A stretch of DNA of 64,000 nucleotides, from assembly GCF_048403405.1 (NCBI RefSeq), contig NZ_CP183129.1, one strand, 5' to 3'. A program made the translations under genes and the position numbers. Shown one piece after another: positions 22,420 to 35,929 of this stretch. Below the pieces are notes generated by a model. That model saw only the letters and a program-made list of their open reading frames with translations. It searched no databases and was not told the DNA's origin. This DNA is from Escherichia coli (GTDB lineage Bacteria > Pseudomonadota > Gammaproteobacteria > Enterobacterales > Enterobacteriaceae). Position 1 is the first letter of the stretch. Each line of letters begins with the position of its first letter.

Positions 22420-22493
22420 CAGAACAAGCTATTTCTAAAAAAGTTAACTAATAATATTTTGAAGCCAGCTGCAAAATTTAGTTTTGTGGCTGG

Positions 22494-22901: not shown

Positions 22902-23243
22902 TTCCCCCTCCGGTAATCAGTGAGTCTGATTTATCTCATGCTTGTCGTCTATCGTTAATACAATTTTAGGTCGATTTTTAATCATTGTCTACATCTTGTG
23001 AGTTATGCACATATCCACGGTCACCAAGCCAGTGCAACCCGATGCCAACAAGCAATCGGGTAAACGGGAGCGTACAGGGCATCGGCCCTGATGGTGGCGG
23101 TGGGTATGTGTATAACTTTTTTGTTGCCTTCATATAAAAATCTTATTCTTTCATCTGGATGGATTTATTGAATTTGATTTTTTATGTCAGTTTAAGTAAG
23201 TTTTTAATATGTATCCGAGTCCTTGTATATAGGAGATGATAAT

Positions 23244-23543
23244 ATGAATTTTATTTTTTGGTTTGTGGTCTTAATAGGGGCGGGATATTTGTGGAGGAGG
23301 AGGGGTTGGTTCAGTAAAATAAGGAAGCAATACTCAAGGAGAAAAACAACATTAAATGGTAACAAAGGATGTTTATATAATAAAAAAAATGACAATGATG
23401 CTTTGGAAGGTAATGGGGATTGTAATAATTTTTATTCTGAGAATAAAGAAAGTTTCTTTTGGTTAATGATTGAGAGAGGTATTAAATTTTACAGAAAAGA
23501 ATATTTGACTACGATTACTGAAAAAAATATCATGATAAGTTAG
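23244..23543 (+). CDS. hypothetical small membrane protein (AT-rich cargo)
   Basis: N-terminal TM followed by basic stretch; RBS aggag 8 nt upstream of ATG 23244. Confidence 0.4.
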   Translation: MNFIFWFVVLIGAGYLWRRRGWFSKIRKQYSRRKTTLNGNKGCLYNKKNDNDALEGNGDCNNFYSENKESFFWLMIERGIKFYRKEYLTTITEKNIMIS

Positions 23544-23782
23544 TGAGCTGGTTTGGTGAGAAATGTTATATACATTGTCAGGTTAGTTTAGGGAGTTTAT
23601 TTATATTCCCAAAACAAAAAAATTTTACTGATGAAGAACAAAAACGTTTTTTTTCTGTTTGTAATAGAATGTCCTTGGATTTTATTTTAACATTTAAAAC
23701 TAATATGCCCTTCTTACGTGTTTCTGTTGACTCTATGAAAAATAAACCGCCTGTTTGGGATGTTTATGATAAATCCAAATAA
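23543..23782 (+). CDS. hypothetical small protein, overlapping previous stop
   Basis: 79-aa ORF, ATGA overlap with upstream gene suggests coupling. Confidence 0.3.
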   Translation: MSWFGEKCYIHCQVSLGSLFIFPKQKNFTDEEQKRFFSVCNRMSLDFILTFKTNMPFLRVSVDSMKNKPPVWDVYDKSK

Positions 23783-23957
23783 AAACATATCTGATTGTTG
23801 AGTTTTCGTGATTAAAGATGGCATTGATTATTAATACGATGAAGAACCAACAAGGGGATATTTAATAAAGAGAAAAAGGAGGATGTAAAATATTCTCCTT
23901 TTTCTTTATCGGGTATTGACGAAAAAAGAAAGTTTGATTAAATTTACCACGTTACAC

Positions 23958-24176
23958 CGTTGCTTAATGCAACATTGCCAATGCTTCGGTTGTCTGAGAG
24001 AAGCGCCTACGGGTGACAACAATGCCAATCCGGCAATCTGAGAGGAACGCCTACGGGTGATTGCCACTGCCAATCCTCGGGTCATCTGAGACGAGGGCCT
24101 ACGGGCGATGACAGAACTCCGTTCGTCCTTGAAATCGACGGAGGGTGATAACAGAATAGCGTTATCATCAGGATTA
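23958..24176 (+). repeat. Structured direct repeat copy 1 (three tandem hairpin units plus two further hairpins)
   Basis: Near-identical to 26392-26612; three about 45-nt units with stems gttgtc/gacaac, ggcaatc/gattgcc, gtcatc/gatgac around a conserved loop tgaga..gcctacggg. Confidence 0.8.
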
Positions 24177-24436: not shown

Positions 24437-24824
24437 AAGTGCATACGCTCAGAACGCTTCAATACTGGTCTTACAGCAAAACTGACAATCTGACAGACAT
24501 GTAATGCATTGCTCAGAACGGCTGAAAGTCTTTCAACGCTCAACGTTTATATGATGATAAAAACGTATAACATTATGAAAAAAGGAGAAAAAACGACACG
24601 ATACCAAGGCGACGTCAGGAAACTGACGGACGGAGGTGCCCTGATAACGGGGGCCGGTCTGATGACCGCAAACAGTTCAGAGAACTGATTTGATACCTCT
24701 CAACAACTCAACCTTTTATCGCCCCGGTGCTCAGGTATCTGTCAGGTCGCAGGATGCGCAATATAAAACCGTCGCGCCGGGAAAAGGTAACCAGTTGAGA
24801 GCGAAAGAGGCGGAGAATCAGAGA

Positions 24825-25733
24825 ATGTCCAGAAGAGCAAAAGCCCTGTCCCGTGAAATGCATATCCTTGCACGTCAGGCCGGAGGGAGCTTTAAAACCA
24901 TTGCAGACCGGGTCAAAATTGCAGAACGGGTTGCGGCAGAGCTGGCCGGGTTGAATATTCAGATACGATCTGTTGAGCAACTGAAATCCCGCCATATTGA
25001 AATGTATATCCATGCCCGCAGAGAACAGAATATCAGTTTACGCAGCTGTCAAAACGAAATGTCGGCTATCCGGGCGATATTTCGTGTTGCCGGACGTCAT
25101 AAACTGGCTGACCCTAAACATGAGCGCCTCAGTAATGAGGCGCTGGGGCTTTCAGGTGCCAGCAGGGCTGGCACCCGTACCGCGATATCGGACGAGCGCT
25201 TTCACGAAGCGCTCGCTCGGATTGAGCCTTATGATCAGGGGGTGGCATTAACTATGCAGTTATCCCGTAGTCTGGGATTGAGAAATGAAGAAGCCGTGCA
25301 GTCAGTAAAATCATTACGGACCTGGCAACAGGCGCTTAAAAACGGTAAAGATCGCGTTCATGTGGTTTTTGGGACAAAAGGAGGCAGACCCCGTGAAGCA
25401 TTAGTGCCGGATAAAGCCCGTGTATTAACATTAATTAATAAAGCCATTGAATATGCGGATAAACATAACGGTTATTTAATTAATCGTCCGTCATTACATT
25501 CTGCCAAAGATCGTTATATTAATGTGATGCGACGGATAGGCGGATTTATTCACGAAGAATCAAATCATGGTTTACGGTATGCCTATGCTCAGGATGTTGA
25601 AAAATATTATCTCAGTCAGGGATTCAGTCAAAAGGAAGCCTATGCATTAACCTCCATGGATTTAGGGCATGGTGACGGTCGTGGCGATTATATTAAACGG
25701 GTTTATAGTCAGAAAGGAGATATTGAGGAATAA
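24825..25733 (+). CDS. tyrosine recombinase-like protein (integrase-fold)
   Basis: Motifs in canonical order: LGLRNEE (Arg), HGLRYAYA (HxxR), LGHGDGRGDYIKRVY (candidate Tyr nucleophile); start taken at ATG 24825 after aagaggcggaga, though the ORF could extend to 24690. Confidence 0.5.
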   Translation: MSRRAKALSREMHILARQAGGSFKTIADRVKIAERVAAELAGLNIQIRSVEQLKSRHIEMYIHARREQNISLRSCQNEMSAIRAIFRVAGRHKLADPKHERLSNEALGLSGASRAGTRTAISDERFHEALARIEPYDQGVALTMQLSRSLGLRNEEAVQSVKSLRTWQQALKNGKDRVHVVFGTKGGRPREALVPDKARVLTLINKAIEYADKHNGYLINRPSLHSAKDRYINVMRRIGGFIHEESNHGLRYAYAQDVEKYYLSQGFSQKEAYALTSMDLGHGDGRGDYIKRVYSQKGDIEE

Positions 25734-25740
25734 GATAAAA

Positions 25741-26352
25741 ATGAAAGTCTGTTTAATTATTTTGTTTATTAATTTTGCTTTTTGTTTTCCGTTAATGGCG
25801 AAGACGTTATTTTTAGGTGATTCATTAACGGCTGTTTATGAAATGTCAGCAAAATATGTTTTGGATGAAAAAATAAAAACAGAATATGTTTCCGGTTCGG
25901 GGTTAATAAATAAAAGTAAAAAAGATTGGATCGCTTTCGTGAATAATTTCGATTTGCGGGAGTTTGATAATGTGATTATTAGTCTCGGAACAAATGATTT
26001 TGTTCAATATGGTTCGGATGAATGGCTGAAATATTACAGTCTGGTATTTCAATTCATTGCTGAAATTCAAAGTGAAAATCCGTTAGCGACAATTGTCTGG
26101 ATATCTCCACCACATTTAAAAAATCCGGAACATGAACGTTATTTAATACATACCCGGCATATAATTAAACACAGTGCGATGTTATTAAATATTCATTATC
26201 TGGATATTAATCAGCCTCATATATTAGGAACGCAATGGCAATCTGTTATTCATAATGAAACTGTACGAACTGATGATGGAATACATATTACCCGTAAAGG
26301 GGGAGTACGGGTGATCAGAGAAGTGGTAAAAATCCTGAATGGGCAGGATTGA
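25741..26352 (+). CDS. secreted SGNH/GDSL-family hydrolase (esterase/acylhydrolase)
   Basis: Signal peptide then GDSL block (LFLGDSLTA), GTND block, C-terminal DDGIH; very low GC; RBS gagga. Confidence 0.6.
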   Translation: MKVCLIILFINFAFCFPLMAKTLFLGDSLTAVYEMSAKYVLDEKIKTEYVSGSGLINKSKKDWIAFVNNFDLREFDNVIISLGTNDFVQYGSDEWLKYYSLVFQFIAEIQSENPLATIVWISPPHLKNPEHERYLIHTRHIIKHSAMLLNIHYLDINQPHILGTQWQSVIHNETVRTDDGIHITRKGGVRVIREVVKILNGQD

Positions 26353-26391
26353 CAAAGATAAAAAAACGGCTAAAAATGAATCTGCTTATCT

Positions 26392-26612
26392 CGTTGCGTA
26401 ATGCAACTTGCCAATGCTTCGGTTGTCTGAGAGAAGCGCCTACGGGTGACAACAATGCCAATGTTCCGGCAATCTGAGAGGAACGCCTACGGGTGATTGC
26501 CACTGCCAATCCTCGGGTCATCTGAGACGGGAGCCTACGGGCGATGACAGAACTCCGTTCGTCCTTGAAATCGACGGAGGGTGATAACAGAATAGCGTTA
26601 TCATCAGGATTA
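26392..26612 (+). repeat. Structured direct repeat copy 2
   Basis: Same orientation as 23958-24176; differs by 3 substitutions and two small indels. Confidence 0.8.
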
Positions 26613-26640
26613 TTTTTACGCAACGCTTCATATAACCTGC

Positions 26641-26700
26641 CCGCTGACGGGGAAATCACCCGTCATCAGGGAATTTCTCCGTTTTTTCAGGAGAAATTCA
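26641..26700 (+). promoter_or_regulatory. Two-hairpin leader sequestering the RBS of the downstream gene
   Basis: gacggg-loop-cccgtc followed by tttctcc-TTTTTT-ggagaaa ending 4 nt before ATG 26701; same architecture at 28081-28147. Confidence 0.5.
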
Positions 26701-27063
26701 ATGAAGGTATCTACATTTCCGGAATCGTCTTTTTTTGACGATCTGCACTCTCTCACGCAACTGCATCACCTCTCAGGTGAGCTCGACATGGTTCTTGCTT
26801 TTGTCCGTCTGGATATTGGCGAGCACCCGGACGAAGATAATTTTCCGCCAAACTTCTGGATAATCAGTGCCGTTGCAGAGCAACTGGGCGCGTTATCTGT
26901 GGAGGCTGATTTTACCCGTCCACATCTTGAGAAAATGGTCCGCGCTGTCTGGAAAGCGGCTGAGCAAACGCCTTATGCGTCTGACTTTCGCCGTATCTAC
27001 AACGATGCGATCAAAAATGCACAGTTTGAAGATCCGGTTGAAGCGCTGATGTTTGGTGCTTAA
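26701..27063 (+). CDS. hypothetical acidic protein (ICE cargo)
   Basis: 120-aa ORF directly after the structured leader. Confidence 0.45.
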   Translation: MKVSTFPESSFFDDLHSLTQLHHLSGELDMVLAFVRLDIGEHPDEDNFPPNFWIISAVAEQLGALSVEADFTRPHLEKMVRAVWKAAEQTPYASDFRRIYNDAIKNAQFEDPVEALMFGA

Positions 27064-27144
27064 CGGCGGACATTCACTGATTTTATGACCCATACGGGAA
27101 AACATCCCGTGAGGGCTGTATTCCCTTATCTGAGGATAGCCCTT

Positions 27145-27462
27145 ATGACTCTTTTTACATTGAATTATGGTGTTGCCCACGTAATGTCTGGTATTGCCAG
27201 TTATTTATTTCCGCATTCCCGTGTTTCTCAGCAACTGAAGGCCGTTGCTAATGATGCCCGGATGCTGAAAATCACCGCAGAAGAACTGGAGGTGATACGT
27301 TTGGACGAAAAACGGATGTATCAGAGCGGAGATTACAGAGAACTGCCGTTTATTGAGCTTGATTTGTATACAACGGCATTTCGTTTTGGCGCCCTGATTT
27401 ACTATGGACTCGCAAACCGGTGCCCCCGCATTTTTGCTTCACCGGCTGACAGTCATCGCTGA
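27145..27462 (+). CDS. hypothetical protein (ICE cargo)
   Basis: ORF with gagga RBS; preceded by an acggga-loop-tcccgt hairpin. Confidence 0.35.
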   Translation: MTLFTLNYGVAHVMSGIASYLFPHSRVSQQLKAVANDARMLKITAEELEVIRLDEKRMYQSGDYRELPFIELDLYTTAFRFGALIYYGLANRCPRIFASPADSHR

Positions 27463-27628
27463 GCGGCTCGATCCGGAAATCTGGAATGAAGCCTGGCGCT
27501 GGGGTTACCGCTGCTGCCTGCAACACGAAAATGAAAAGCATGTAACCGACTGATTTAACGGACTCACAGGTGTCAGTCAGCTACCCTGAAATGGGGCTGC
27601 TTCCATTTACTGATCAGGTTTGATAACC

Positions 27629-28051
27629 ATGATTTATGGCATTACCCGCGGACTGTTCTTTGTGGCCGATCACGTCTGTCGCTATTCCCGGAGTTGGGAA
27701 TGGCTGATGTGGCTGGTTGAGGAAGCCCGGACACTGCGAAATGTTGAGGCTGATTTGAAACTGGCTGAAAGGTATGCCGGTGAGCAAAACCGCCCTCATT
27801 CCATTTCGCTGATGAAGTGTACGCTTTATGATGCCGGATTTGCTTACGGCAGATTATTACTGTGGCGTGCGGATGGTCTGATGAGACCCTGGCCGGCATG
27901 TCTGCTTCGCCGTTTACCGGATATCGGTCAGCGGATTGATGCAGTGATCTGGCAGAAAGGCTGTGAAGCCGGCTTGGATGAGACCGTCAGTGAATGGATG
28001 GCAATGGAGATGGCTGATGAATACCTTGTCGGTATCGAACTGAGCGACTGA
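27629..28051 (+). CDS. hypothetical protein (ICE cargo)
   Basis: 141-aa ORF, Trp-rich. Confidence 0.4.
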   Translation: MIYGITRGLFFVADHVCRYSRSWEWLMWLVEEARTLRNVEADLKLAERYAGEQNRPHSISLMKCTLYDAGFAYGRLLLWRADGLMRPWPACLLRRLPDIGQRIDAVIWQKGCEAGLDETVSEWMAMEMADEYLVGIELSD

Positions 28052-28080
28052 TTTGCCGGCATTCATTCTTTTTTTACTTA

Positions 28081-28147
28081 CCTACCCGACGGGGAAACTC
28101 CCCGTCAGGTGGACGTTTCTCCGTCTTTTTTTACCGGAGAAACACAC
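28081..28147 (+). promoter_or_regulatory. Two-hairpin leader sequestering the RBS (second copy)
   Basis: gacgggg-aaact-ccccgtc and tttctccg-tcttttttta-cggagaaa immediately before ATG 28148. Confidence 0.5.
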
Positions 28148-28504
28148 ATGTCTGTTTTACTGCCAGAAAACAAACCGTTTTCATTTCTGAGTCTGATCAT
28201 GCAACGGCTGTACCGTTTTTATGACCGTATACCGTTTGTTTCGTCAGGGATACCCGGTGAATTACCGTGGATAAGTAACCGAACCGGCCGGCGCGCTTAC
28301 CGTGCGACGGTGGTGAAAGTGAATCCCCGGCAGTTCAGGATCCGCATTACTGTACGTCTGGGCGCGCATTCGAAAGAATACCGCTTTCATTCGTTGATAA
28401 CCTCGCTGGACAGCAGGACATTTTGTTCCATAAAAGCGGCCTCCCGTGCCGGATTTGCACTGACATACCAGCTGGCACAGGTGCGTTATGCCTGGTGTCG
28501 CTGA
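28148..28504 (+). CDS. hypothetical protein (ICE cargo)
   Basis: 118-aa ORF following the structured leader. Confidence 0.4.
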   Translation: MSVLLPENKPFSFLSLIMQRLYRFYDRIPFVSSGIPGELPWISNRTGRRAYRATVVKVNPRQFRIRITVRLGAHSKEYRFHSLITSLDSRTFCSIKAASRAGFALTYQLAQVRYAWCR

Positions 28505-28550
28505 TTTGTTGTACTGATAGCACCATTGACTTTTTGTTATGACCCCGCCC

Positions 28551-28592
28551 GGCGGATTGATTTCCGTCAGGAGATGAATCCGCCATTTTTTT
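28551..28592 (+). terminator. Rho-independent terminator
   Basis: Stem ggcggatt / aatccgcc followed by attttttt. Confidence 0.6.
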
Positions 28593-28614
28593 AATCAGAA
28601 TGAGGATTTATCAC

Positions 28615-29127
28615 ATGGGATATACACATTATTTTACACAAAAACAAAGCGTTGACCCCCTGATGTGGCAGAACTTCCGTGAACATCTGGACAAGCTCTA
28701 TCACCACTATCTGGCCAATCCCATATCCGCAGAGCAGATTTGCGGCGGATACCCAGATAAACCTATTGTGTTGTGTGATGGCCTGGAGGAAAAACGGCTG
28801 AATGATGGCTCATTATTCACCGACGACGGTGAGGCGCTTTGTTTTAACGGTAATGCGGCTGATGACATGAATCATGAGACGTTTATTGTTCAGCGCGAAA
28901 TCCCCGTAGAGGACTACTGGGATTTCTGCAAGACAGCATACAAACCCTATGACGTGTTTGTAGTCGCGGCATTACTGTTGTTGTACAACCTGTGCCCGGG
29001 ATATTTTTCGGTCTCTTCTGACGGGGATATCCGGGACTGGCAGCCGGTGCTGGACTATGTCAGTCAGGTATTTCCTTATCTTATCCTGACGTTACCGGAA
29101 GGGATAGGTTTACCGGAGGCAGGATAA
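28615..29127 (+). CDS. hypothetical protein (ICE cargo)
   Basis: ORF with gagga RBS 8 nt upstream of ATG 28615 (alternative ATG at 28600). Confidence 0.4.
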   Translation: MGYTHYFTQKQSVDPLMWQNFREHLDKLYHHYLANPISAEQICGGYPDKPIVLCDGLEEKRLNDGSLFTDDGEALCFNGNAADDMNHETFIVQREIPVEDYWDFCKTAYKPYDVFVVAALLLLYNLCPGYFSVSSDGDIRDWQPVLDYVSQVFPYLILTLPEGIGLPEAG

Positions 29128-29774
29128 TGGCCAGAGCCTGTACGATACGGGAACTGATAGCGGATTTATCCCGCTGCAATCCGGAGGCATTCGTCTTGTG
29201 TGAGATGTGGTTCCCCGATGATGTTACCTATGTTGATGAAACGGCTTGTCCGGCAGAGACACGGGCAACATTAACGCATGTTGCACATCATTTTGATGCG
29301 GAGCTGGGGATCAACTGGGACACGCTGGCGTGTGCGTTATCGTGTGTCAGAGATGCTGAGCAGAAGGGACTCGATATTTACTTTTATGCCAGTGAAAAGC
29401 GTGGTACAGACAAAAGCCGGATACCCGCCTCACGTTACGCAGAAGCGGACAGCGACGGCGATATTGAAGTCGGGTATTTCCGTAAGGTTAATGCGCTGTT
29501 TAAGTGGGTGCATGACCATATCGGGGCTTTTGAGAACTGTGAAAAGGTGCTGGTGACAGAGGCCCATCTGCGGGCTTTACAGCAGGACTTGCAGGCACTG
29601 ACACCGGAAAACTGTCAGACACGGTTCCCGACCACTGAGGGCTTTTTCTTTGGTTCAACGGCTTATGATGAGGCGTACTGGGCTGATGTGGAAGGCGTCA
29701 GACGCTGGCTGTCAGAGATAACGGAGACGTTTGACTTTGACGCAGAGTCACTGTTTTTTGTGGCCTGGTGGTAA
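29127..29774 (+). CDS. hypothetical acidic protein (ICE cargo)
   Basis: 215-aa ORF coupled to upstream gene. Confidence 0.4.
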   Translation: MARACTIRELIADLSRCNPEAFVLCEMWFPDDVTYVDETACPAETRATLTHVAHHFDAELGINWDTLACALSCVRDAEQKGLDIYFYASEKRGTDKSRIPASRYAEADSDGDIEVGYFRKVNALFKWVHDHIGAFENCEKVLVTEAHLRALQQDLQALTPENCQTRFPTTEGFFFGSTAYDEAYWADVEGVRRWLSEITETFDFDAESLFFVAWW

Positions 29775-29780
29775 TCAGGT

Positions 29781-29854
29781 AAGGTGTTTCCCCGGGAAGC
29801 ACTGAACACATTTTAATCAGTGTTTCCACTGGAAACGCCGGTTGAAAATTAACC
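29781..29854. promoter_or_regulatory. GTTTCC-N3-GGAAAC palindrome pair upstream of ardC, related to the traD-upstream array
   Basis: gtgtttccccgggaagcac then gtgtttccactggaaacgcc followed by ggttgaaaattaacc (inverse of ggtgaattttcaaac at 3276). Confidence 0.5.
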
Positions 29855-29926
29855 ATATTGTTTTTTCACCTGATGGTGTATCTCACCGTCAGGACGGGAT
29901 ACACCTTTTTTATTGAGGGTATTCCG

Positions 29927-30901
29927 ATGAAAAAATCTGACCGTAAACGCCGTCCGGCAGCGGATAAGCCGGTTCGCGATATTTATCAGGAAGTGACTGA
30001 CCGTATTGTGGCCGCGCTGGAAAAAGGCACCCGTCCGTGGAAACGACCATGGCGGCCGTCGGAAGGGACAGGCACCGGTTTTCCGGTGAACGCCCTGACC
30101 GGTCATTCCTACCAGGGGATAAATGTGCTGCTGTTATGGTTGTCGGCGGCGGAGCAGGGCTTTGGTTACGATATCTGGCTGACTTACCGTCAGGCACAGC
30201 AACTGGGTGGCCATGTCCGTAAAGGCGAAATGGCGACGAATACTGTGATATTCAAACCGGTGAAGGTGCCGGCAAAAGACCGTCACGGTGAGCTGCTGCG
30301 GGATGAACACGGTGAGGTGGTGATGACGGAGGTGCCGATGATAAAGGCGAATCCGTTATTTAACATAGCCCAGTGTGATGACCTGCCGGCGCATTTTTAC
30401 GAAAACCGGCGACTACCCGGAGAGGAGACAGCAGGGATAACCCTGCCGGCCACGCACCGGGTGCTGGATATCCTGAATGCCAGCGGCGTGAAGGTGACCA
30501 GTGCGGCGCAGAACCGGGCGTATTACAGTCCGTCACAGGACCGGATTGTGATGCCGCTGTCGTCACAGTTTGACCGGAATGCCGATTACCAGGCCACCTT
30601 ACTGCATGAGTTGGTGCACAGTACCGGTCATCCGTCCAGGCTGGCCCGTGAAGGCATCACCTCATCGTCCCTGAAGTTTGGTGACCCGCTGTACAGTTTT
30701 GAGGAGCTGGTTGCGGAAATGGGCAGCGCTTTTCTTTGTGCGCAGTTAAGCGTCGAGGGAGAAGTGAACCATGAAAGCTATCTTGACAGCTGGCTGCGGG
30801 TACTGAAATCGGACAAAAAAGCGTTGTTCCGGGCCGCCGGGCAGGCCCGCCAGGCCTGTGAGTTTTTACTGAATGTGGCCGCATCCCGACAGGCCGCGTA
30901 G
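29927..30901 (+). CDS. ardC: ArdC-like antirestriction protein (ssDNA-binding N-domain plus zincin-like metalloprotease domain)
   Basis: HExxH motif in LLHELVHSTGH, size about 325 aa, basic N-terminus; RBS gaggg. Confidence 0.7.
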   Translation: MKKSDRKRRPAADKPVRDIYQEVTDRIVAALEKGTRPWKRPWRPSEGTGTGFPVNALTGHSYQGINVLLLWLSAAEQGFGYDIWLTYRQAQQLGGHVRKGEMATNTVIFKPVKVPAKDRHGELLRDEHGEVVMTEVPMIKANPLFNIAQCDDLPAHFYENRRLPGEETAGITLPATHRVLDILNASGVKVTSAAQNRAYYSPSQDRIVMPLSSQFDRNADYQATLLHELVHSTGHPSRLAREGITSSSLKFGDPLYSFEELVAEMGSAFLCAQLSVEGEVNHESYLDSWLRVLKSDKKALFRAAGQARQACEFLLNVAASRQAA

Positions 30902-30910
30902 GAGACTGCG

Positions 30911-31210
30911 ATGAACAAAATGACCATTATCCGCTTTCAGTTACTGGTACATCAGTTACTGCAAGTGCATTACGGCATTACGCTGAGTGATACCGGATTG
31001 TCCGATGATGCTGAGGTGTCCCGGATGATTGAACTCGGGATATCGCCGGTATCGGTGGTCAACCGTCTGGTGGATAAGTACCACCTGGATAAACTGAATG
31101 CATCCTGTTATCTGCCGGCATCCCCGTATGTCAGTGACAGCGATGCCTTACTTGCACAGGCTCAGCTGAGCGGTGCCATTAACCCGGATGTCATGCCGGA
31201 TAATCCTTAA
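30911..31210 (+). CDS. hypothetical protein
   Basis: 99-aa ORF coupled downstream of ardC. Confidence 0.4.
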   Translation: MNKMTIIRFQLLVHQLLQVHYGITLSDTGLSDDAEVSRMIELGISPVSVVNRLVDKYHLDKLNASCYLPASPYVSDSDALLAQAQLSGAINPDVMPDNP

Positions 31211-31230
31211 CGATTAACGACTGACATCTT

Positions 31231-31286
31231 TCCCGTGAGGGCTTGTTCCTCACGGGATAAGCCCTCTTTTTTATTCTGAAAAGAGG
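31231..31286 (+). promoter_or_regulatory. Tandem hairpins (terminator/attenuator-like) with second hairpin covering the RBS of the 31295 gene
   Basis: tcccgtgagg / cctcacggga 10-bp stem, then cctctttt / aaaagagg stem ending 8 nt before ATG. Confidence 0.45.
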
Positions 31287-31294
31287 ACATCATC

Positions 31295-32296
31295 ATGCCA
31301 AACTGGTGCTCGAACCGACTTGACATCACCTTACACAACGCGGCGGATATGCCGGCTCTTAAACACTGGATATATGCGGATGATGGGATACCCGCCTGGC
31401 AGACGGCGATAGCACAAAGTCTGCATTTGTTGCTGGCCGGCTGCGCGGGGATACTGAAACCGGTCAGACCGCTGTCTTTTCCGCCGTTACCGGAACTGAC
31501 TTCATACGGTGCAACCGGGCCTGTTTCCCCGGGAAACACGGCTTTCACGCACTGGGTTGACCTGCTGATGACTGCACCGGATTTGACACCGTCATGTTGT
31601 CAGCAAATCCATCAGTGGTATCAGATGTGGTTATCTGAAGGCGGGGCGTACCATTCCTGGGACTCGCTGACGGCGACGCAGAAAGCGAGACTGTCCCCGT
31701 TGTTATCGGGAAGCAGTTTTGACTGGCTTAACCGGTTTACCGGAGAGGATGAGAGCCGGGTGGCGACAGCCTGGGAGGATATTCAGTACCTTCGCAGTAC
31801 CGGAGAAGCCATACCGATGGATATGCGGACTCTGTTACCGACCAGCCTTGCGGCTGAATTACACGGTTTTAACGGCTGTTTATGGAAAACACCGGAGGTC
31901 ATCTGGCGGCAGGCGCGCTGGCAGGCGTTTGCCCCCGGTAACAGTACATATCACCTTTATCAGTGCCGTTATGGTGTGAAATGGCCGAACGGCAGTGGTT
32001 TTCACTGTATTGATGGCGGGTATGCGACGGAGTTATCCGCAGAGTTTGATACTCCGTGGGGGCCGCCGTCAGCAGCGGTTTTGTGTGCTCTGTCTGCGCG
32101 TTTCCGCTGTCAGGTCCGTCATGTCTATGCCGAAGAAGGCTGTGGTTTCTGCGGATACAGCGAGTATGACCATGGCCGGTTAACCGACCATGAATCTGAT
32201 GAGATTGAGTTCAGTGATGAAGAGAATGAGGACGGTTTCCAGGATGTGACGGGACCGGACTATATTCTTGATTCATTGCCACATTACGGAGGGTGA
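31295..32296 (+). CDS. hypothetical protein (N-terminus MPNWCSN; possibly DUF1281-like, unverified)
   Basis: 333-aa ORF, Trp-rich N-domain, acidic C-terminus. Confidence 0.45.
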   Translation: MPNWCSNRLDITLHNAADMPALKHWIYADDGIPAWQTAIAQSLHLLLAGCAGILKPVRPLSFPPLPELTSYGATGPVSPGNTAFTHWVDLLMTAPDLTPSCCQQIHQWYQMWLSEGGAYHSWDSLTATQKARLSPLLSGSSFDWLNRFTGEDESRVATAWEDIQYLRSTGEAIPMDMRTLLPTSLAAELHGFNGCLWKTPEVIWRQARWQAFAPGNSTYHLYQCRYGVKWPNGSGFHCIDGGYATELSAEFDTPWGPPSAAVLCALSARFRCQVRHVYAEEGCGFCGYSEYDHGRLTDHESDEIEFSDEENEDGFQDVTGPDYILDSLPHYGG

Positions 32297-32379
32297 GGTT
32301 TCCGTACTGATTTAACTGACTGAAAACCCGGTAGTGATACCGGGTTTTTTTATTTTTTTCGGAAAACTAATTTCGGCTT

Positions 32380-32766
32380 TTGTTTTATTCCCGCATTGTT
32401 ATCGTGATGCCGTCATTGAATGAGATGGGGGAGAGTGTGATGAGATGTGAATTTGGGCAGGGTGTGAGGGAGTGGGCTCAGGATTTTTGGAATGAAATTC
32501 TGTTTCCTTTTTTTGTCACAGCCGGACTTTTGTTGCCACTGATTCTGGTTGTGGGCGTTTTCCTGGTCTGGGATGAACAGCGCCAGGCTGAGTGGGGGCG
32601 TTATTACCTGACGGAATGTCAGTTGGTGGAAAGAAACAGAAATGCGGGCTTCTGGTCAGGTCGGGAAAATATTCTGCAATGCGGAATGACCCGGGAGCAT
32701 GTGAATGCGGACGCGTATGAAAAGGCCATCCGTGCCTGGCAGCAGAAACAGACAGAGACAGAATAA
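32380..32766 (+). CDS. hypothetical membrane protein
   Basis: 128-aa ORF with one hydrophobic helix. Confidence 0.35.
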   Translation: MFYSRIVIVMPSLNEMGESVMRCEFGQGVREWAQDFWNEILFPFFVTAGLLLPLILVVGVFLVWDEQRQAEWGRYYLTECQLVERNRNAGFWSGRENILQCGMTREHVNADAYEKAIRAWQQKQTETE

Positions 32767-32941
32767 TAAAACATTATTCATGTAATCTTCTGTTTTGTTG
32801 CCGGAATTATTTTTGTGGATGAGTTAACGTAATGAAAATAAGGTGCATTTATTATTTATTCTTATCCTGATATTAAAATAATTTATGTTTTATTTAATGT
32901 TGCGTTGTTGTTTTTACCGAATTAAAGAGGCAGTAACACCG

Positions 32942-34534
32942 ATGTTACCGTGGTTTCGTAAATCGCTTTCCCGGAAAGCGGAAGAGAAAACATTGCGTGT
33001 TTCCCCGGGAAACACGCAGGAAAGGCCATTATTTATCCGTGACAGTGACGGCTTTTATTTACCGCAGGCAGCTGACGTATTGCTGACCACACCGCAGCGG
33101 CAAAACTGGTTACAGCAAATCAGCCGGGTGGTAGCGTTACCGGATAACCAGTACCGGGCACTTTGCCTGTCTCCTTTGCAGACGCTGGCAGAACGACTTC
33201 AGTGTGTGCCGGCATCAAAAACCGGGAAATATGCCGGCGAAGGGGGATTGCTGGATTTAACGCTGAATACGACAGCCTGGTGTATGCGGATGTCCCAGAA
33301 AGAGATGCTGCCCCGCGGGCTTCCGTCGGAAGAGCAGAGCCGTCAGTTCAGCGCCTGGAATGTGTGTGTTTTTTATACCGGACTGTTTTACTGGTTACCG
33401 TTAACGGCACAGTTTGAGGGACAACTGAACAGCCTGTCGGCGTGGCAGCCGGGGATGAGTGCGCCCACCGTACCGTATCGTTTTCGCTTTCATGAGCCGG
33501 TGCCGGATATGACGCATTTTCGCCGGACGACGGGGGCCATGATGGCTTTCCGGCTATTACCGGAGAAGGTAATCCACTGGTTGTCGGGTACACCAAAGGC
33601 GCTTCAGGCGTTGTCTGACGTGGTGACCGAGCCGGTAAACGGTGATAATGATTTACAGCGTGTGCTGAATGAGGCTCTGGCTGCGTTCCCCGCCGGTGCA
33701 TTGCCGGCATTTTCTTCCGTTGTTTCTATGTCAGCGCCTGATGCTTCGTCTTCAGTGCTATCAGGGCAGCCGGAGAATGATATCGCGTCATTGGCGCCTG
33801 CTGAATTGGCGCAAAAGCCACAACCTGAAACTCCGTCTGTAACATCTGTATTGCCTCCGGAGTCTGTTACTTCAGAAAAAACAGAGAACGGAATTCACTG
33901 CGATATACCGCTAATGGTAGTTGCAGAAGCAGAAGGTGCGGTTGTCCATGGGGCACTTGATTCTGCTGATGAAAAAACTGTCTCAGATATGTCTCCTCCG
34001 TTATCTGAGGATATGAAATATGCACTTGAATTATCAGGTTTAATGCCGGAAATCTTATCTGATACTCAGACGGGCAATCGTGATGAGAAGGATGAACAGC
34101 GCGAAAACTGTCTGAGTATAAAAAATGAAGGAGAGGCTTTCTGGGCGTGGTTTAAGTCCGGATTATTGGGCGGAAAACTGGCAATAAATACGCCGGATGC
34201 GAAGGTTCACTGTGTCATGGAGTATTTGTTTTGCCAGAGTCCGGCTGTTTTTTATCAGTACATACAGGAGGCGGGTAAAAATCCGGATGATATCGGCCAT
34301 ATTATTTCTTCTTTTGAATCCCTTAAATTGCACCGGATTATTCGTCATGATACCCGACAAACAGGGCATTTCAGGGCTCGAATTTATGGTGAAAAACTGA
34401 ATCCGCTGAGTGATAACAAAACATTAATTACGTTATCCCATAAAAAAATCAATGGTTACATGATTAAAGGACGTCAGATTTTTGGCATGAATATGCCGGA
34501 GGAATCATTGTTTATTCGTATTGTCGGAAGTTAA
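32942..34534 (+). CDS. large ICE protein next to the integrase; putative relaxase-like (positional inference only)
   Basis: 530-aa ORF with aagagg RBS and AT-rich promoter region; no recognisable relaxase motif found by eye. Confidence 0.3.
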   Translation: MLPWFRKSLSRKAEEKTLRVSPGNTQERPLFIRDSDGFYLPQAADVLLTTPQRQNWLQQISRVVALPDNQYRALCLSPLQTLAERLQCVPASKTGKYAGEGGLLDLTLNTTAWCMRMSQKEMLPRGLPSEEQSRQFSAWNVCVFYTGLFYWLPLTAQFEGQLNSLSAWQPGMSAPTVPYRFRFHEPVPDMTHFRRTTGAMMAFRLLPEKVIHWLSGTPKALQALSDVVTEPVNGDNDLQRVLNEALAAFPAGALPAFSSVVSMSAPDASSSVLSGQPENDIASLAPAELAQKPQPETPSVTSVLPPESVTSEKTENGIHCDIPLMVVAEAEGAVVHGALDSADEKTVSDMSPPLSEDMKYALELSGLMPEILSDTQTGNRDEKDEQRENCLSIKNEGEAFWAWFKSGLLGGKLAINTPDAKVHCVMEYLFCQSPAVFYQYIQEAGKNPDDIGHIISSFESLKLHRIIRHDTRQTGHFRARIYGEKLNPLSDNKTLITLSHKKINGYMIKGRQIFGMNMPEESLFIRIVGS

Positions 34535-34549
34535 AAGCAGGAGGTGTTT

Positions 34550-35620
34550 ATGAAAGATAATCACAGTTCTGATGAACATCAGCAGAAAGTGGATGTATGG
34601 GAGCAAATGCTGAGTAATTACTTTTACAATAAAGTATTACGGCCGGATACGGAGAAAACATACCGTAAGATGGTACGTCTTTTTCTGCGTTATTGCGGAG
34701 TTTGTGAAAATGCGTTACCGCTACCGGATGAAGTGACACATGAGCATGTGCTGAGATGGCGAAGAAATGAGCTGAATATTCAGAAAGTCCGGGAACGGAC
34801 ATGGAACACAAAAACCAGGCATATGCAGTCTCTGTATAATTATTGGATCAAAAAAGGGATTGTTTCACTTAAAGAAAACCCGTTCTCAGAAACACAAATT
34901 GAACCGGGTGAAAAACAGAAAAAAGTCTATACACAATCACAACTGAGAACGATTTATCGTATTCTGGAACAATTTCAGCAACAGGAAAATATGCTGCCAC
35001 CTGATCAGGCTCACTTTCAGGCATGTGCGGTTTATCCCACTCGATTCTGGTTTGCTGTGCTGGAAACGCTGAGGCTGACGGCTATTCGTTTTAACCAGCT
35101 GATTAACCTGCATATTGGCGATCTGGATTTTGAGGAGTGTACGATCACATTGCGCAGTGAAAGCAGTAAAAATCACCGGGAATATCAGATTGCTTTTGTT
35201 CAGCCACTACGTTGTTTACTGGCGCCCTTGGTTGAGGAAATGCGTTGTCACGGGGCGGATAAAAACGATATTTTGTTTGATGTTCATCGTCTTTATCATA
35301 AACGACTATCCCGCTCTGAAACTCCACTCAGTCAGACGATACGTTCTTTTTTCCGTCGTTTATCAAAGGAATGTGGATTTCATGTCAGTCCCCATCGTTT
35401 CAGACATACACTGGCGACGACATTAATGAAACATCCTGAACGTAATATGCAATTGACGAAACAGATGTTAGGACACCGTAGTCTCTCTTCAACTATGGAA
35501 TATATTGCTCTGGATGCATACAGTACAGTCAGGATCTTGGAGAATGAGTTAGGTGAGTTTTTAACAATGGGATTAGGTGGTGAACTTACAAGGCTAGCAT
35601 CAAAAAGACAGAGGATGTGA
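34550..35620 (+). CDS. int: tyrosine site-specific integrase (ICE integrase)
   Basis: C-terminal catalytic region HRFRHTLAT ... LGHRSLSSTMEYI; RBS gcaggagg; adjacent to tRNA-Phe. Confidence 0.85.
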   Translation: MKDNHSSDEHQQKVDVWEQMLSNYFYNKVLRPDTEKTYRKMVRLFLRYCGVCENALPLPDEVTHEHVLRWRRNELNIQKVRERTWNTKTRHMQSLYNYWIKKGIVSLKENPFSETQIEPGEKQKKVYTQSQLRTIYRILEQFQQQENMLPPDQAHFQACAVYPTRFWFAVLETLRLTAIRFNQLINLHIGDLDFEECTITLRSESSKNHREYQIAFVQPLRCLLAPLVEEMRCHGADKNDILFDVHRLYHKRLSRSETPLSQTIRSFFRRLSKECGFHVSPHRFRHTLATTLMKHPERNMQLTKQMLGHRSLSSTMEYIALDAYSTVRILENELGEFLTMGLGGELTRLASKRQRM

Positions 35621-35853: not shown

Positions 35854-35929
35854 TGGTGCCCGGACTCGGAATCGAACCAAGGACACGGGGATTTTCAATC
35901 CCCTGCTCTACCGACTGAGCTATCCGGGC
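35854..35929 (-). tRNA. pheV: tRNA-Phe (GAA anticodon)
   Basis: Reverse complement reads GCCCGGATAGCTCAGTCGGTAGAGCAGGGGATTGAAAATCCCCGTGTCCTTGGTTCGATTCCGAGTCCGGGCACCA, the canonical E. coli tRNA-Phe, 76 nt with CCA. Confidence 0.95.

What the first reader, a model, noticed from the sequence alone, without database searches (positions are those of the whole stretch)
26701..30901. Block of small acidic hypothetical proteins ending in ArdC: candidate anti-defence island
Six co-oriented small ORFs (about 105-215 aa, several acidic and Trp-rich) precede the ArdC-like antirestriction gene, each with its own structured leader or terminator. The arrangement resembles anti-restriction/anti-defence gene clusters of conjugative elements, but none of the six has a recognisable motif, so they could be uncharacterised inhibitors of host defence.
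Basis: inference. Interest (0 to 1): 0.5.

Follow-up and report, generated by a model that had tools for sequence, protein, structure and literature searches.

The report
Co-regulated accessory gene array beside ArdC
Six real but uncharacterised small genes sit next to the anti-restriction gene ArdC in a transferable genomic island, and most of them share with ArdC a previously uncatalogued RNA leader that hides the ribosome-binding site, which suggests one jointly switched "establishment / anti-defence" gene set, although no anti-defence activity is shown.

Summary
Six co-oriented genes (26701-29774) precede a genuine ArdC gene (29927-30901) in an ICEPm1-type conjugative element at tRNA-Phe. 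All compared ORFs are under purifying selection. Four of six are acidic, two are Trp-rich and ORF4 is very basic.

None matches Pfam, NCBIfam or PADLOC. ORF5 and the C-terminal domain of ORF6 belong to large uncharacterised families found in phages, phage-plasmids and ICEs. Their confident models match no solved fold convincingly. ORF2 and ORF3 are paralogues.

The block fills a variable slot (TraG ... STAXI RNA - small genes - ArdC - TraI - integrase) conserved across this ICE family. In related elements the slot holds KlcA/ArdB.

New here: ORF1, ORF4, ORF5, ArdC and DUF1281 (ORF2 weakly) each carry one leader motif absent from Rfam. It has three covarying, mutually exclusive helices: hairpin 1, a ribosome-site-sequestering hairpin 2, and an alternative helix that is often terminator-like. 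A model of it finds 60 further copies in related ICEs, all sense-oriented. Of 70 copies examined, 69 end at a start codon, 37 of them ArdC.

The anti-defence reading is partly supported by context and shared regulation. It is not demonstrated, and the origin of transfer is unknown.

The parts
23958..24115 (+). First STAXI RNA motif copy (upstream context)
   Evidence: Rfam RF01728, 112 bits against a gathering score of 40.5.
24593..24744 (+). EFASI RNA motif (upstream context)
   Evidence: Rfam RF02957, 78 bits against a gathering score of 51.2.
24825..25733 (+). Tyrosine-recombinase-like 'integrase domain' gene. It is conserved at the head of the slot in related ICEs.
   Evidence: RefSeq annotation. 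Its homologue in the Morganella variant L168 carries Pfam Phage_int_SAM_2 + Integrase_1. Homologues at 46-58 % identity in L009, L012, L014, L032 and L056.
25741..26352 (+). SGNH/GDSL hydrolase gene (GC 0.33)
26392..26551 (+). Second STAXI RNA motif copy, heading the six-gene block. A promoter-like site lies just upstream at 26349-26377.
   Evidence: Rfam RF01728, 123 bits. Promoter-like TTGACA-17-AAAAAT site. The same STAXI-then-small-genes-then-ArdC order is seen in L009, L012 and L014.
26638..26703 (+). Leader motif copy of ORF1. It comprises hairpin 1, an SD-sequestering hairpin 2, and an alternative helix followed by a U tract.
   Evidence: Covariance model R1, 49 bits. Fold z-score -4.5. 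The nascent fold is terminator-like.
26701..27063 (+). ORF1: 120 aa, pI 4.6, narrow family
   Evidence: dN/dS 0.22. Only close relatives found.
27089..27147 (+). Weak leader motif copy of ORF2 (not in the training set)
   Evidence: R1, 20 bits, E 0.014.
27145..27462 (+). ORF2: 105 aa, pI 7.9. It is a paralogue of ORF3 and is absent from ICEPm2.
   Evidence: BLASTP E 6e-6. jackhmmer link through L002. Indel mapped.
27629..28051 (+). ORF3: 140 aa, pI 5.1, 5 % Trp
   Evidence: dN/dS 0.41. Homologues at 37-46 % identity and in L002.
28081..28150 (+). Leader motif copy of ORF4
   Evidence: R1, 54 bits. Fold z-score -6.2. Nascent terminator fold.
28148..28504 (+). ORF4: 118 aa, pI 11.3
   Evidence: dN/dS 0.21. 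Distant homologues in L002 and L056.
28544..28617 (+). Leader motif copy of ORF5
   Evidence: R1, 39 bits. Fold z-score -3.1. Cognate a:b duplex -17.3 kcal/mol.
28615..29127 (+). ORF5: 170 aa, pI 4.35. It belongs to a very large phage/ICE family with enzyme-like invariant residues.
29127..29774 (+). ORF6: 215 aa, pI 4.55. It is a fusion of an ~80-aa N-domain (29127-29366) and a ~135-aa C-domain (29367-29774, phrog_7971).
   Evidence: The two domains are separate genes in ICEPm2. The C-domain sits directly upstream of ArdC in Xenorhabdus, Morganella and Photorhabdus elements. AF2 C-domain pLDDT above 94.
29865..29929 (+). Leader motif copy of ArdC
   Evidence: R1, 63 bits. Fold z-score -9.3. 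Orthologous leaders with compensatory changes occur in 36 other ArdC loci.
29927..30901 (+). ArdC: ssDNA-binding N-domain plus zincin metallopeptidase
   Evidence: Pfam ArdcN 2.2e-37 and MPTase-PolyVal 3.2e-39. phrog_7245 'anti-restriction protein' 1.7e-84.
30911..31210 (+). CbtA_toxin-family gene (99 aa, acidic), downstream of the finding
   Evidence: Pfam PF06755, 1.5e-11. RefSeq annotation.
31228..31297 (+). Leader motif copy of the DUF1281 gene
   Evidence: R1, 45 bits. Its alternative helix is the strongest terminator-like site of the region.
31295..32296 (+). DUF1281 / Api92-like gene
   Evidence: Pfam DUF1281 1.2e-38 and DUF1281_C 3.9e-15.
32885..34534 (+). TraI-domain relaxase gene (context)
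   Evidence: RefSeq annotation. Conserved downstream of ArdC in MPF_G ICEs.
34550..35620 (+). ICE tyrosine integrase (context)
35854..35929 (-). tRNA-Phe, the integration site and ICE boundary
   Evidence: ARAGORN. Rfam.

Best explanation
The block is the variable accessory cassette array of an ICEPm1-type integrative conjugative element (GI-type/MPF_G transfer system, TraI-domain relaxase).

It occupies a slot conserved across this ICE family: TraG ... [STAXI - EFASI - recombinase-like gene - SGNH hydrolase] - STAXI - variable small genes - ArdC - CbtA-like - DUF1281 - TraI - integrase - tRNA-Phe.

The genes are real and under purifying selection, and their families are confined to mobile elements. 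ORF1, ORF4, ORF5, ArdC and DUF1281 (ORF2 weakly) each carry a copy of one leader RNA motif. ORF6 is presumably translated by coupling to ORF5.

The motif has four parts. Hairpin 1 (a:a') comes first. Hairpin 2 (b:b') has a 3' arm that contains the Shine-Dalgarno sequence and ends at the start codon. A third pairing is possible because the 5' arm and loop of hairpin 1 (a) repeat the SD-side sequence, so a can pair with b instead. In the AT-richer hosts a U tract follows b, so the a:b helix looks like an intrinsic terminator in the nascent transcript.

The genes are therefore predicted to be silent by default, through termination and/or ribosome-site occlusion. They would be released together by a common, still unknown signal.

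Shown here: the gene set, the synteny, the slot variability, the motif, its covariation, and its restriction to this module.

Inferred: the set is an establishment / anti-restriction regulon, expressed around transfer, whose unknown members act on recipient barriers or on the incoming DNA. For the individual proteins only weak leads exist. ORF5 is probably an enzyme. ORF4 probably binds nucleic acid. The ORF6 C-domain may partner ArdC, given their recurrent adjacency.
For: - **Identity of the element:** 100 % identical to E. coli and Proteus/Providencia ICE copies at tRNA-Phe, with TIGR037xx ICE genes. ICEPm1/ICEPm2 are described in PMC11278526.
- **Real genes:** dN/dS 0.11-0.41.
- **Slot conservation and variability:** the TraG-to-ArdC distance ranges from 0.9 to 8.5 kb with different content. 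ICEPm2 lacks ORF2 and has ORF6 split in two. The Morganella variant has two ORF5 paralogues and a standalone ORF6 C-domain.
- **Known anti-restriction genes in the slot:** ArdC here and Pfam Antirestrict in L014.
- **STAXI heads the block** here and in L009, L012 and L014. STAXI was defined by its proximity to Ssb, topoisomerase, antirestriction and integrase genes (PMC2864571). MPF_G ICEs are noted as rich in STAXI/radC RNA (PMC5587801).
- **Mobile-element distribution of ORF5 and the ORF6 C-domain:**
- **Neighbours of their homologues:** Antirestrict, RadC, DUF3085 and ParA; SSB, ArdC and TopB; DUF1281_C and DUF932.
- **Leader motif, two-hairpin structure:** on a sequence-only MAFFT alignment, 78 % of cells are paired against 65 % in shuffles (0/500) and 43-53 % in slid controls.
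- **Leader motif, alternative helix:** 77 % paired against 62 % in shuffles (0/500).
- **Cognate versus non-cognate a:b duplex:** -13.5 against -7.0 kcal/mol, with 0 of 100,000 permutations as good.
- **Covariance model R1 in the window:** hits only the six module leaders in 64 kb.
- **R1 in related loci:** 60 copies in 1.49 Mb, all on the sense strand.
- **What the copies precede:** of 70 copies examined (window plus loci), 69 end at a start codon. The downstream genes are ArdC x37, DUF1281 x6, ORF5 family x5, ORF4 family x4, ORF6 C-domain x2, ORF1 x2 and KlcA x1.
- **Nascent-transcript folds** are hairpin plus U tract for ORF1, ORF4, ORF5 and DUF1281.
Against: - No ORF has sequence or fold similarity to any characterised anti-defence protein.
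- There is no experimental or expression evidence.
- The oriT and the transferred strand are unknown, and MOB_H systems are known to make leading-region assignment unreliable. 'Expressed on entry' is therefore conjecture.
- The same slot in S. enterica arizonae carries a large, defence-like cluster rather than anti-defence genes, so the slot accepts other cargo.
- The motif copies in Pseudomonas lack the U tract, so the terminator reading is not general.
- For ArdC itself the nascent fold keeps hairpin 1.
- The helix regions used in the cognate test were annotated by hand from MFE folds.
Confidence: 0.5

Rival explanations
1. The six genes serve the ICE's own life cycle rather than acting against host defence. 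Candidate roles are control of transfer competence, processing or protection of the excised or transferred DNA, replication, exclusion, or regulation of the leader motif itself (for example the basic ORF4 as an RNA/DNA binder). The shared leader would then reflect coordinated expression in transfer-competent donors.
For: - The genes lie between the mating-pair genes and the relaxase/integrase, all co-oriented.
- ORF4 has pI 11.3.
- ORF5 has conserved, catalytic-looking residues.
- The ORF6 C-domain is repeatedly adjacent to ArdC, SSB and TopB, which are DNA-handling genes.
- ORF5 homologues in phages lie among replication genes (polymerase, primase, resolvase).
Against: - Core life-cycle genes should be conserved across the ICE family, but ORF1-ORF5 are missing from most related ICEs, which keep TraG, ArdC, TraI and Int.
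- Content differs even between ICEPm1, ICEPm2 and the Morganella variant.
- Known anti-restriction genes occupy the same slot.
Confidence: 0.27
2. The array is an integron-like cassette platform. In this reading the recombinase-like gene at its head inserts or shuffles promoterless gene cassettes, and the structured inter-gene elements are recombination sites folded in single-stranded DNA rather than RNA leaders.
For: - A tyrosine-recombinase-like gene precedes a variable number (0 to 6) of co-oriented small genes: L032 has none, L014 three or four, and the window six.
- The junction elements conserve structure more than sequence, with invariant C-G/C-G/G-C pairs in hairpin 1.
- Gene order is shuffled between variants.
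Against: - The element is positioned on the ribosome-binding site and ends at the start codon in 69 of 70 copies.
- It contains many G-U pairs on the sense strand. These would be C-A mismatches on the other strand.
- It occurs in Pseudomonas and Pasteurellaceae ICEs whose loci show no homologue of that recombinase.
- The ORF2 indel is explained by a tandem duplication or deletion of the ORF3 paralogue inside one leader, not by a site-specific junction.
Confidence: 0.07
3. The block is a set of addiction or toxin-antitoxin-type stabilisation modules. This is suggested by the neighbouring CbtA-family gene, with acidic proteins acting as antitoxins and the basic ORF4 as a toxin.
For: - A CbtA_toxin-family gene lies next to ArdC.
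- The block mixes acidic and basic small proteins.
- Tight translational repression is common for toxins.
Against: - No ORF matches any TA family in Pfam, NCBIfam or PADLOC.
- There is no conserved two-gene pairing, and ORF4 homologues occur with different neighbours.
- The CbtA-like protein is acidic and is truncated to about 65 aa in Xenorhabdus.
Confidence: 0.06
4. Some of the ORFs are not genes, and the region is mostly regulatory or degenerate DNA.
For: ORF1, ORF2 and ORF4 have very few relatives. ORF2 is missing from ICEPm2.
Against: - dN/dS is 0.21-0.22 for ORF1 and ORF4.
- Distant protein-level homologues of ORF4 and of ORF2/ORF3 are found in other elements.
- Ribosome-binding sites and leader motifs end at their start codons.
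Confidence: 0.03

Closest known systems
Anti-defence islands in the leading region of conjugative elements (Samuel et al., Nature 2024, PMC11541004)
   Same: - A co-oriented cluster of small, mostly uncharacterised genes sits around a known anti-restriction gene on a conjugative element.
- It is mixed with toxin-antitoxin-like and DUF genes.
- Its families are shared with phages.
   Different: - The oriT, and therefore leading-region status, is unknown for this element.
- No Frpo-type single-strand promoter was identified.
- Each gene instead carries an RNA leader that sequesters the ribosome-binding site, which is not described for those islands.
STAXI / radC / EFASI RNA motif neighbourhoods (Weinberg et al. 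2010, PMC2864571; Cury et al. 2017, PMC5587801)
   Same: STAXI (123 bits) heads the block, and EFASI plus a second STAXI flank the recombinase-like gene. This is the Ssb/topoisomerase/antirestriction/integrase neighbourhood that gave STAXI its name, and it is known to be typical of MPF_G ICEs.
   Different: - The function of STAXI is unknown.
- The per-gene leader motif found here is a different, smaller element with no Rfam match at E <= 10.
Establishment-gene operons of pLS20-family plasmids, controlled by conditional processive antitermination (PMC6294495, PMC8708921; titles and abstracts only)
   Same: An operon of establishment genes that includes ardC. Here, terminator-like structures precede several genes.
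   Different: - The comparison is by analogy only.
- No antitermination factor or RNA has been identified here.
- The host lineage is different (Gram-positive plasmids).
- Here the terminator arm also pairs with the ribosome-binding site.
Classical attenuators and translational attenuation leaders (trp and ermC type); from general knowledge
   Same: Mutually exclusive helices that include a terminator-like hairpin and a hairpin hiding the Shine-Dalgarno sequence.
   Different: - The topology is 1:2, 1:3 and 3:4, not 1:2, 2:3 and 3:4.
- No leader peptide is evident.
- The motif is repeated before many unrelated genes in one element.
Acidic DNA-mimic anti-restriction proteins (ArdA, Ocr, DMP12)
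   Different: - There is no Pfam ArdA/Ocr match.
- ORF5 has an enzyme-like conservation pattern.

Membership tests
ArdC anti-restriction family (the gene ending the block) | N-terminal ssDNA-binding ArdcN domain | tested here: met
   Pfam PF08401, E 2.2e-37, residues 18-145.
ArdC anti-restriction family (the gene ending the block) | C-terminal zincin metallopeptidase domain with an HExxH motif | tested here: met
   Pfam PF18818, E 3.2e-39. The sequence reads LLHELVHSTGH.
ArdC anti-restriction family (the gene ending the block) | Protects incoming DNA from type I restriction in the recipient | not testable with these tools
   Requires conjugation assays. Known for R388 ArdC (PMC7213743, abstract seen).
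STAXI RNA (RF01728) | Match to the covariance model above the gathering score, with tandem pseudoknot units | tested here: met
   123.3 and 112.1 bits against a gathering score of 40.5. Five 55-nt repeat units.
Leading-region anti-defence island (Samuel et al. 2024) | Lies within the first ~30 ORFs entering the recipient from oriT | not testable with these tools
   The oriT of ICEPm1-type elements was not found in the searched literature. MOB_H leading regions are hard to assign in silico.
Leading-region anti-defence island (Samuel et al. 2024) | Genes uniformly oriented so that the transferred strand is the template | tested here: inconclusive
   All genes from 24825 to 35620 are on the + strand, but the transferred strand is unknown.
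Leading-region anti-defence island (Samuel et al. 2024) | Cluster contains known anti-defence genes | tested here: met
   ArdC in the window. KlcA/ArdB (PF03230) in the same slot of L014.
Leading-region anti-defence island (Samuel et al. 2024) | Frpo/ssi-type single-strand promoters upstream of the genes | not tested
   No reference Frpo sequences were available. No long hairpin with -35/-10 boxes was noticed in the leaders.
DNA-mimic anti-restriction proteins (ArdA, Ocr, DMP12) | Sequence-family membership | tested here: not met
   No Pfam, NCBIfam or PHROG anti-restriction match for ORF1-ORF6.
DNA-mimic anti-restriction proteins (ArdA, Ocr, DMP12) | Fold similarity to a solved DNA mimic | tested here: inconclusive
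KlcA/ArdB (Pfam Antirestrict PF03230) | Match to PF03230 | tested here: not met
   No match in ORF1-ORF6. The family is present only in related elements.
Known defence systems (PADLOC) | Match to a defence-protein model | tested here: not met
   No PADLOC family at E <= 1 for any of 10 proteins.
Intrinsic terminator / attenuator | G+C-rich hairpin immediately followed by a U tract in the nascent RNA, with a competing alternative fold | tested here: met
   The nascent MFE is hairpin plus U tract for the ORF1, ORF4, ORF5 and DUF1281 leaders. The terminator scan agrees. It is not met for the window ArdC leader or for the Pseudomonas copies. Actual termination was not tested.
Integron-type cassette array | Recombinase gene plus cassettes bounded by structured recombination sites with a conserved crossover core | tested here: inconclusive
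   A recombinase-like gene and a variable cassette number are seen. However, the structured element is tied to the SD and start codon, carries G-U pairs, and occurs where no homologue of that recombinase was found.

The most novel reading that the evidence does not exclude
The leader motif is a new class of cis-regulatory RNA: a three-helix switch combining an anti-terminator hairpin, a terminator-like helix and a Shine-Dalgarno sequestor. It would gate a whole ArdC/KlcA-centred regulon in GI-type ICEs of Enterobacterales, Pasteurellaceae and Pseudomonas.

Membership in that regulon would mark ORF5, the ORF6 C-domain, DUF1281 and the other cassette genes as new anti-defence or establishment factors shared with phages.

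A more speculative extension is that the STAXI RNA at the head of the array supplies the signal, for example processive antitermination, that lets polymerase and ribosomes through all the leaders at once.
Probability: 0.25. Interest if true: 0.8.

Novelty: new variant of a known kind. Interest (0 to 1): 0.6.

Why it matters
ICEPm1-type and related GI-type ICEs spread virulence and resistance genes among Proteus, Providencia, Morganella, E. coli, Klebsiella, Salmonella and Pseudomonas.

If the shared leader defines a jointly switched establishment regulon, it gives a sequence-based handle for finding new anti-defence genes in ICEs: any gene that carries the leader becomes a candidate. That would cover elements where the leading-region criterion used for plasmids cannot be applied.

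It would also nominate two very large phage/ICE protein families for testing, the ORF5 family and the ORF6 C-domain family. Both have confident models without a known fold.

Finally, the leader would add a compact, repeatable riboregulator design to the known repertoire, and it might give the STAXI motif, which has had no function since 2010, a testable role.

Tried and rejected
1. A fused ORF1-ORF4 query in the word-indexed protein search returned one hit only. The index was saturated, so the search was wasted. The exhaustive representative search with a fused query worked.
3. Ribosome-site opening energies for all genes, using coordinates carried over from the RefSeq record, were invalid. 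The window and that record are collinear only in the module, and start codons elsewhere did not line up. This control was discarded.
4. A hand-written hairpin descriptor scan found three true leaders plus four hits inside GC-rich coding sequence. It was too unspecific and was replaced by the covariance model.
5. Complementarity between STAXI or EFASI and the leaders was not better than for shuffled sequences (z -0.6 to -2, one at -3.2). There is therefore no support for direct pairing.
6. No ops element for RfaH was found beyond chance, and no CsrA-like ORF was found in the window.
7. The literature searched gave no oriT position for ICEclc, PAPI-1 or ICEPm1-type elements.
9. The 'ACTGATTTAAC' three-frame-stop motif after genes is only modestly enriched (32 matches against 13 expected at up to 2 mismatches) and was not pursued.

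Full report
**1. What the window is**

The region belongs to an integrative conjugative element (ICE) inserted at tRNA-Phe (35854-35929). The stretch 26500-31000 is 100 % identical to chromosomal copies in several E. coli genomes. In those records RefSeq annotates TIGR037xx 'integrating conjugative element' genes, a conjugative ATPase, TraG-N, ArdC, a TraI-domain protein and a tyrosine integrase next to tRNA-Phe.

Identical ArdC loci occur in Proteus mirabilis and Providencia stuartii. All six small proteins are found on at least 1000 contigs of Proteus, Providencia, Morganella, Klebsiella, E. coli and Salmonella, always labelled 'hypothetical'. This matches the published ICEPm1 family. A 93 % identical variant in mouse E. 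coli M19 is the element called ICEPm2 in PMC11278526.

**2. The observation**

- Four are acidic (pI 4.35-5.1), ORF2 is neutral and ORF4 is very basic (pI 11.3).
- Only ORF3 (5.0 % Trp) and ORF6 (3.3 % Trp) are Trp-rich.
- Against ICEPm2, dN/dS is 0.22 (ORF1), 0.41 (ORF3), 0.21 (ORF4), 0.11 (ORF5), and 0.21 and 0.18 (the two halves of ORF6). ArdC gives a similar 0.21. These are therefore coding genes under purifying selection.
- ORF2 is a diverged paralogue of ORF3 (BLASTP E 6e-6, with a jackhmmer bridge through a Klebsiella michiganensis homologue). It is absent from ICEPm2, where the ORF3 homologue uses the leader that precedes ORF2 here.
- ORF6 is a fusion. Its ~80-aa N-domain and ~135-aa C-domain are separate genes in ICEPm2 and exist as standalone families.

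ArdC is genuine, with ArdcN plus MPTase-PolyVal domains and an HExxH motif.

**3. The proteins**

ORF1-ORF6 have no Pfam, NCBIfam or PADLOC match. They also have no sequence relative among solved structures.

An exhaustive search of 1.84 billion representative proteins with a fused query gave 3165 hits. Among the 150 best listed, most hit ORF5 or the ORF6 C-domain. ORF1, ORF2 and ORF4 have only close relatives. ORF3 has a few at 37-46 % identity.

**4. Where the families occur**

*ORF6 C-domain.* Homologues are on ~110-kb, SSU5-like phage-plasmids of Klebsiella and E. coli and on large phages. In Xenorhabdus, Morganella and Photorhabdus ICEs they sit directly upstream of ArdC. In Photorhabdus the order is SSB - DUF3577 - ORF6 C-domain - ArdC - TopB.

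Their commonest neighbour there is an Api92/DUF1281_C-type protein (12 of 80 loci). DUF932, GP88 and a resolvase-like gene also recur. In one plasmid-like metagenomic contig an ORF5 homologue lies next to a Pfam Antirestrict gene, inside a long array that includes RadC, DUF3085 and ParA. ORF5 and the ORF6 C-domain are also neighbours in three viral loci and one metagenomic contig.

Homologues are thus found on mobile elements, not in housekeeping contexts.

**5. The slot**

I fetched 80 ArdC loci from one genome per species and mapped the window's proteins onto them. The order TraG-N ... ArdC ... TraI - Int - tRNA is conserved in Proteus, Xenorhabdus, Chimaeribacter, Salmonella, Citrobacter, Pasteurellaceae and Pseudomonas. 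The TraG-to-ArdC interval varies from 0.9 to 8.5 kb, with different content in each lineage.

| Element | Content of the slot |
|---|---|
| Xenorhabdus | A 203-aa gene, one or two ORF6 C-domain copies, and others |
| Chimaeribacter (L014) | Three or four small genes, the last a KlcA/ArdB gene (Pfam Antirestrict, E 4.6e-23) |
| Pseudomonas | DUF3085 plus one small gene |
| S. enterica arizonae (L022) | A large, defence-like cluster |
| Morganella psychrotolerans (L032) | The recombinase-like gene directly abuts ArdC |
| Morganella variant (L168) | A 273-aa gene, two ORF5 paralogues and a standalone ORF6 C-domain |

The RNA motifs are part of the architecture. STAXI - EFASI - recombinase-like gene - (SGNH) - STAXI - small genes - ArdC is seen here and in L009, L012 and L014. 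Pseudomonas has the radC motif instead. STAXI was named for exactly this neighbourhood, and MPF_G ICEs were already noted as rich in STAXI and radC RNAs linked to anti-restriction.

**6. The leaders: the main new result**

*One shared design.* The leaders of ORF1, ORF4, ORF5, ArdC and DUF1281 differ in sequence but share one design.
- Hairpin 1 (a:a') comes first.
- Hairpin 2 (b:b') follows. Its 3' arm contains the Shine-Dalgarno sequence and ends 0-8 nt before the start codon.
- The 5' arm and loop of hairpin 1 carry a copy of the SD-side sequence, so a can pair with b instead.
- Examples of a/b pairs: ArdC GGUGUAUC/GAUACACC; ORF5 GGCGGAUU/AAUCCGCC; DUF1281 GAGGGCUU/AAGCCCUC; ORF4 CGGGGAAAC/GUUUCUCCG.

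*Conservation.* ArdC leaders in other elements keep the design with different sequences.

*Statistical support.*
- On a sequence-only MAFFT alignment of 18 leaders, the two hairpins are 78 % paired. Shuffles give 65 % (0/500 as high) and slid controls 43-53 %.
- The alternative helix is 77 % paired. Shuffles give 62 % (0/500) and slid controls 50-62 %.
- Cognate a:b duplexes average -13.5 kcal/mol against -7.0 for non-cognate pairs, with 0 of 100,000 permutations as good.

*Covariance-model search.*
- Run with filters off, model R1 hits only the module in the 64-kb window: the five training copies plus the untrained ORF2 leader (20 bits, E 0.014).
- In 1.49 Mb of related loci it finds 60 copies at E <= 0.01, all on the sense strand and most of them untrained. 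None is in alphaproteobacterial ArdC loci, the phage-plasmid locus or the phage locus.
- Of 70 copies examined (window plus loci), 69 end at a start codon. The downstream genes are ArdC x37, DUF1281-type x6, ORF5 family x5, ORF4 family x4, a Xenorhabdus 203-aa family x3, ORF1 x2, ORF6 C-domain x2, a 273-294-aa family x2, KlcA x1 and singletons.
- On the 65-sequence alignment, which is fitted to the model, 82 % of cells pair against 63 % in shuffles. There are 324 double-change cells and many G-U pairs on the sense strand.
- Rfam 15 has no match to this stretch at E <= 10.

**7. How the leaders may work**

In most enterobacterial and Pasteurellaceae copies a U tract follows b. For a transcript ending at that tract, the minimum-energy fold of the ORF1, ORF4, ORF5 and DUF1281 leaders (and of L014, L024, L032 and L056) is the long a:b hairpin plus U tract. 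That is an intrinsic-terminator shape. For full-length RNA the minimum-energy fold is hairpin 1 plus hairpin 2, which hides the ribosome-binding site.

Two readings remain.
- (i) A translational switch: OFF is hairpins 1 and 2; ON is a:b, which frees the SD. This fits the Pseudomonas copies, which lack the U tract.
- (ii) A double lock: the nascent a:b helix terminates transcription, and transcripts that escape because hairpin 1 formed are translationally silent. In this reading expression needs a termination-resistant polymerase, after which the persisting a:b helix leaves the SD free.

Three base pairs of hairpin 1 are (nearly) invariant: C-G in 63 of 65 sequences, C-G in 60 of 65, and G-C in 65 of 65. 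This hints at recognition by a factor. I found no such factor. STAXI/EFASI complementarity is at chance level, there is no ops site and no CsrA-like gene in the window. The idea that STAXI is the antitermination signal is speculation.

**8. Verdict on the interpretation**

The block is a mobile-element accessory array that shares a slot, an upstream RNA motif and a per-gene leader with established anti-restriction genes. This is good circumstantial support for an establishment or anti-defence role, and for the genes being switched together.

It is not proof.
- No protein resembles a known inhibitor.
- The DNA-mimic idea is at best weakly hinted for one domain.
- ORF5 looks enzymatic and ORF4 looks like a nucleic-acid binder.
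- The same slot can carry other cargo.
- Leading-region status cannot be assigned, because the oriT is unknown and MOB_H systems are acknowledged to be difficult in this respect.

Rival readings, with my rough weights, are ICE-internal functions (about 0.27), an integron-like cassette platform (0.07), addiction modules (0.06) and non-genes (0.03).

**9. Novelty**

Anti-restriction gene clusters on ICEs, and the STAXI association, are known. Three things appear new: (a) the delineation of this variable slot across the ICE family; (b) the two large phage/ICE protein families with confident models and no known fold; and (c) the multi-copy three-helix leader motif, which defines a putative regulon. 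I rate the finding as a new variant of a known kind, with interest 0.6.

Noticed in passing
window 23975-24176 and 26408-26612: The two STAXI copies, with their downstream ~150 nt, form near-identical direct repeats (148 nt at 99 % identity). They bracket the recombinase-like gene and the SGNH hydrolase (2436-nt spacing). The same double-STAXI arrangement is seen in Xenorhabdus and Chimaeribacter. It could mark a duplication or a separately mobile module.
   Followed up: partly
window 29784-29802, 31519-31540, 32995-33016: A perfect palindrome, GTGTTTCCCCGGGAAACAC, occurs three times. One copy is in the ORF6-ArdC spacer. The other two are inside the DUF1281 and TraI coding sequences, where both encode VSPGNT. 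ICEclc-type elements are reported to have two oriTs sharing a repeat motif (my recollection of Miyazaki & van der Meer 2011), so these are candidate relaxosome or regulator sites.
   Followed up: no
window 30911-31210: The CbtA_toxin-family gene right after ArdC is acidic (pI 4.8) and has no recognisable CbeA-type antitoxin partner. It is shortened to about 65 aa in Xenorhabdus ICEs. It may not be a toxin here.
   Followed up: partly
L022 1822-9239 (Salmonella enterica subsp. arizonae): The same TraG-to-ArdC slot holds a seven-gene cluster that looks like a defence system: a metallophosphoesterase-like protein, two P-loop NTPase-like proteins, large unknown proteins and an HNH-type endonuclease. 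It was not searched against PADLOC.
   Followed up: no
window, 13 sites including 28102, 28564, 29886: The octamer CCGTCAGG, which is the 3' arm of hairpin 1 in three leaders, occurs 13 times in the window against 1.6 expected. Several copies lie inside the transfer genes.
   Followed up: no
window 29858-29926: The ArdC leader is in frame with ArdC, without a stop codon, from a TTG at 29858. The same is true in Xenorhabdus L009. This is probably chance (23 codons), but an N-terminally extended ArdC or a leader-translation mechanism is not excluded.
   Followed up: no
window 22000-24000: A low-GC stretch (0.375, against 0.58 in the transfer genes) lies between TraG and the first STAXI. It contains two small hypothetical genes and a DUF3742 gene. 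In ICEPm2 this position carries the phenazine/CDI cargo.
   Followed up: no
window 27549-27559, 32306-32316 and similar sites after stop codons: Several genes of the module are followed by ACTGATTTAAC-like sequences that place stop codons in all three frames (32 matches against 13 expected at up to 2 mismatches). This may be a cassette-end or insulator feature.
   Followed up: partly
L087-L166 (viral contigs): In phage contigs the ORF5 family repeatedly neighbours small Api92/DUF1281_C-type proteins starting MPNYC(T/S)N, as well as DUF932 proteins. The same families flank it in the ICE. This suggests a gene neighbourhood shared between phages and ICEs.
   Followed up: partly
L004 136-5866 (metagenomic contig): An ORF5 homologue (40 % identity) lies directly upstream of a 1661-aa Type ISP restriction-modification enzyme.
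   Followed up: no
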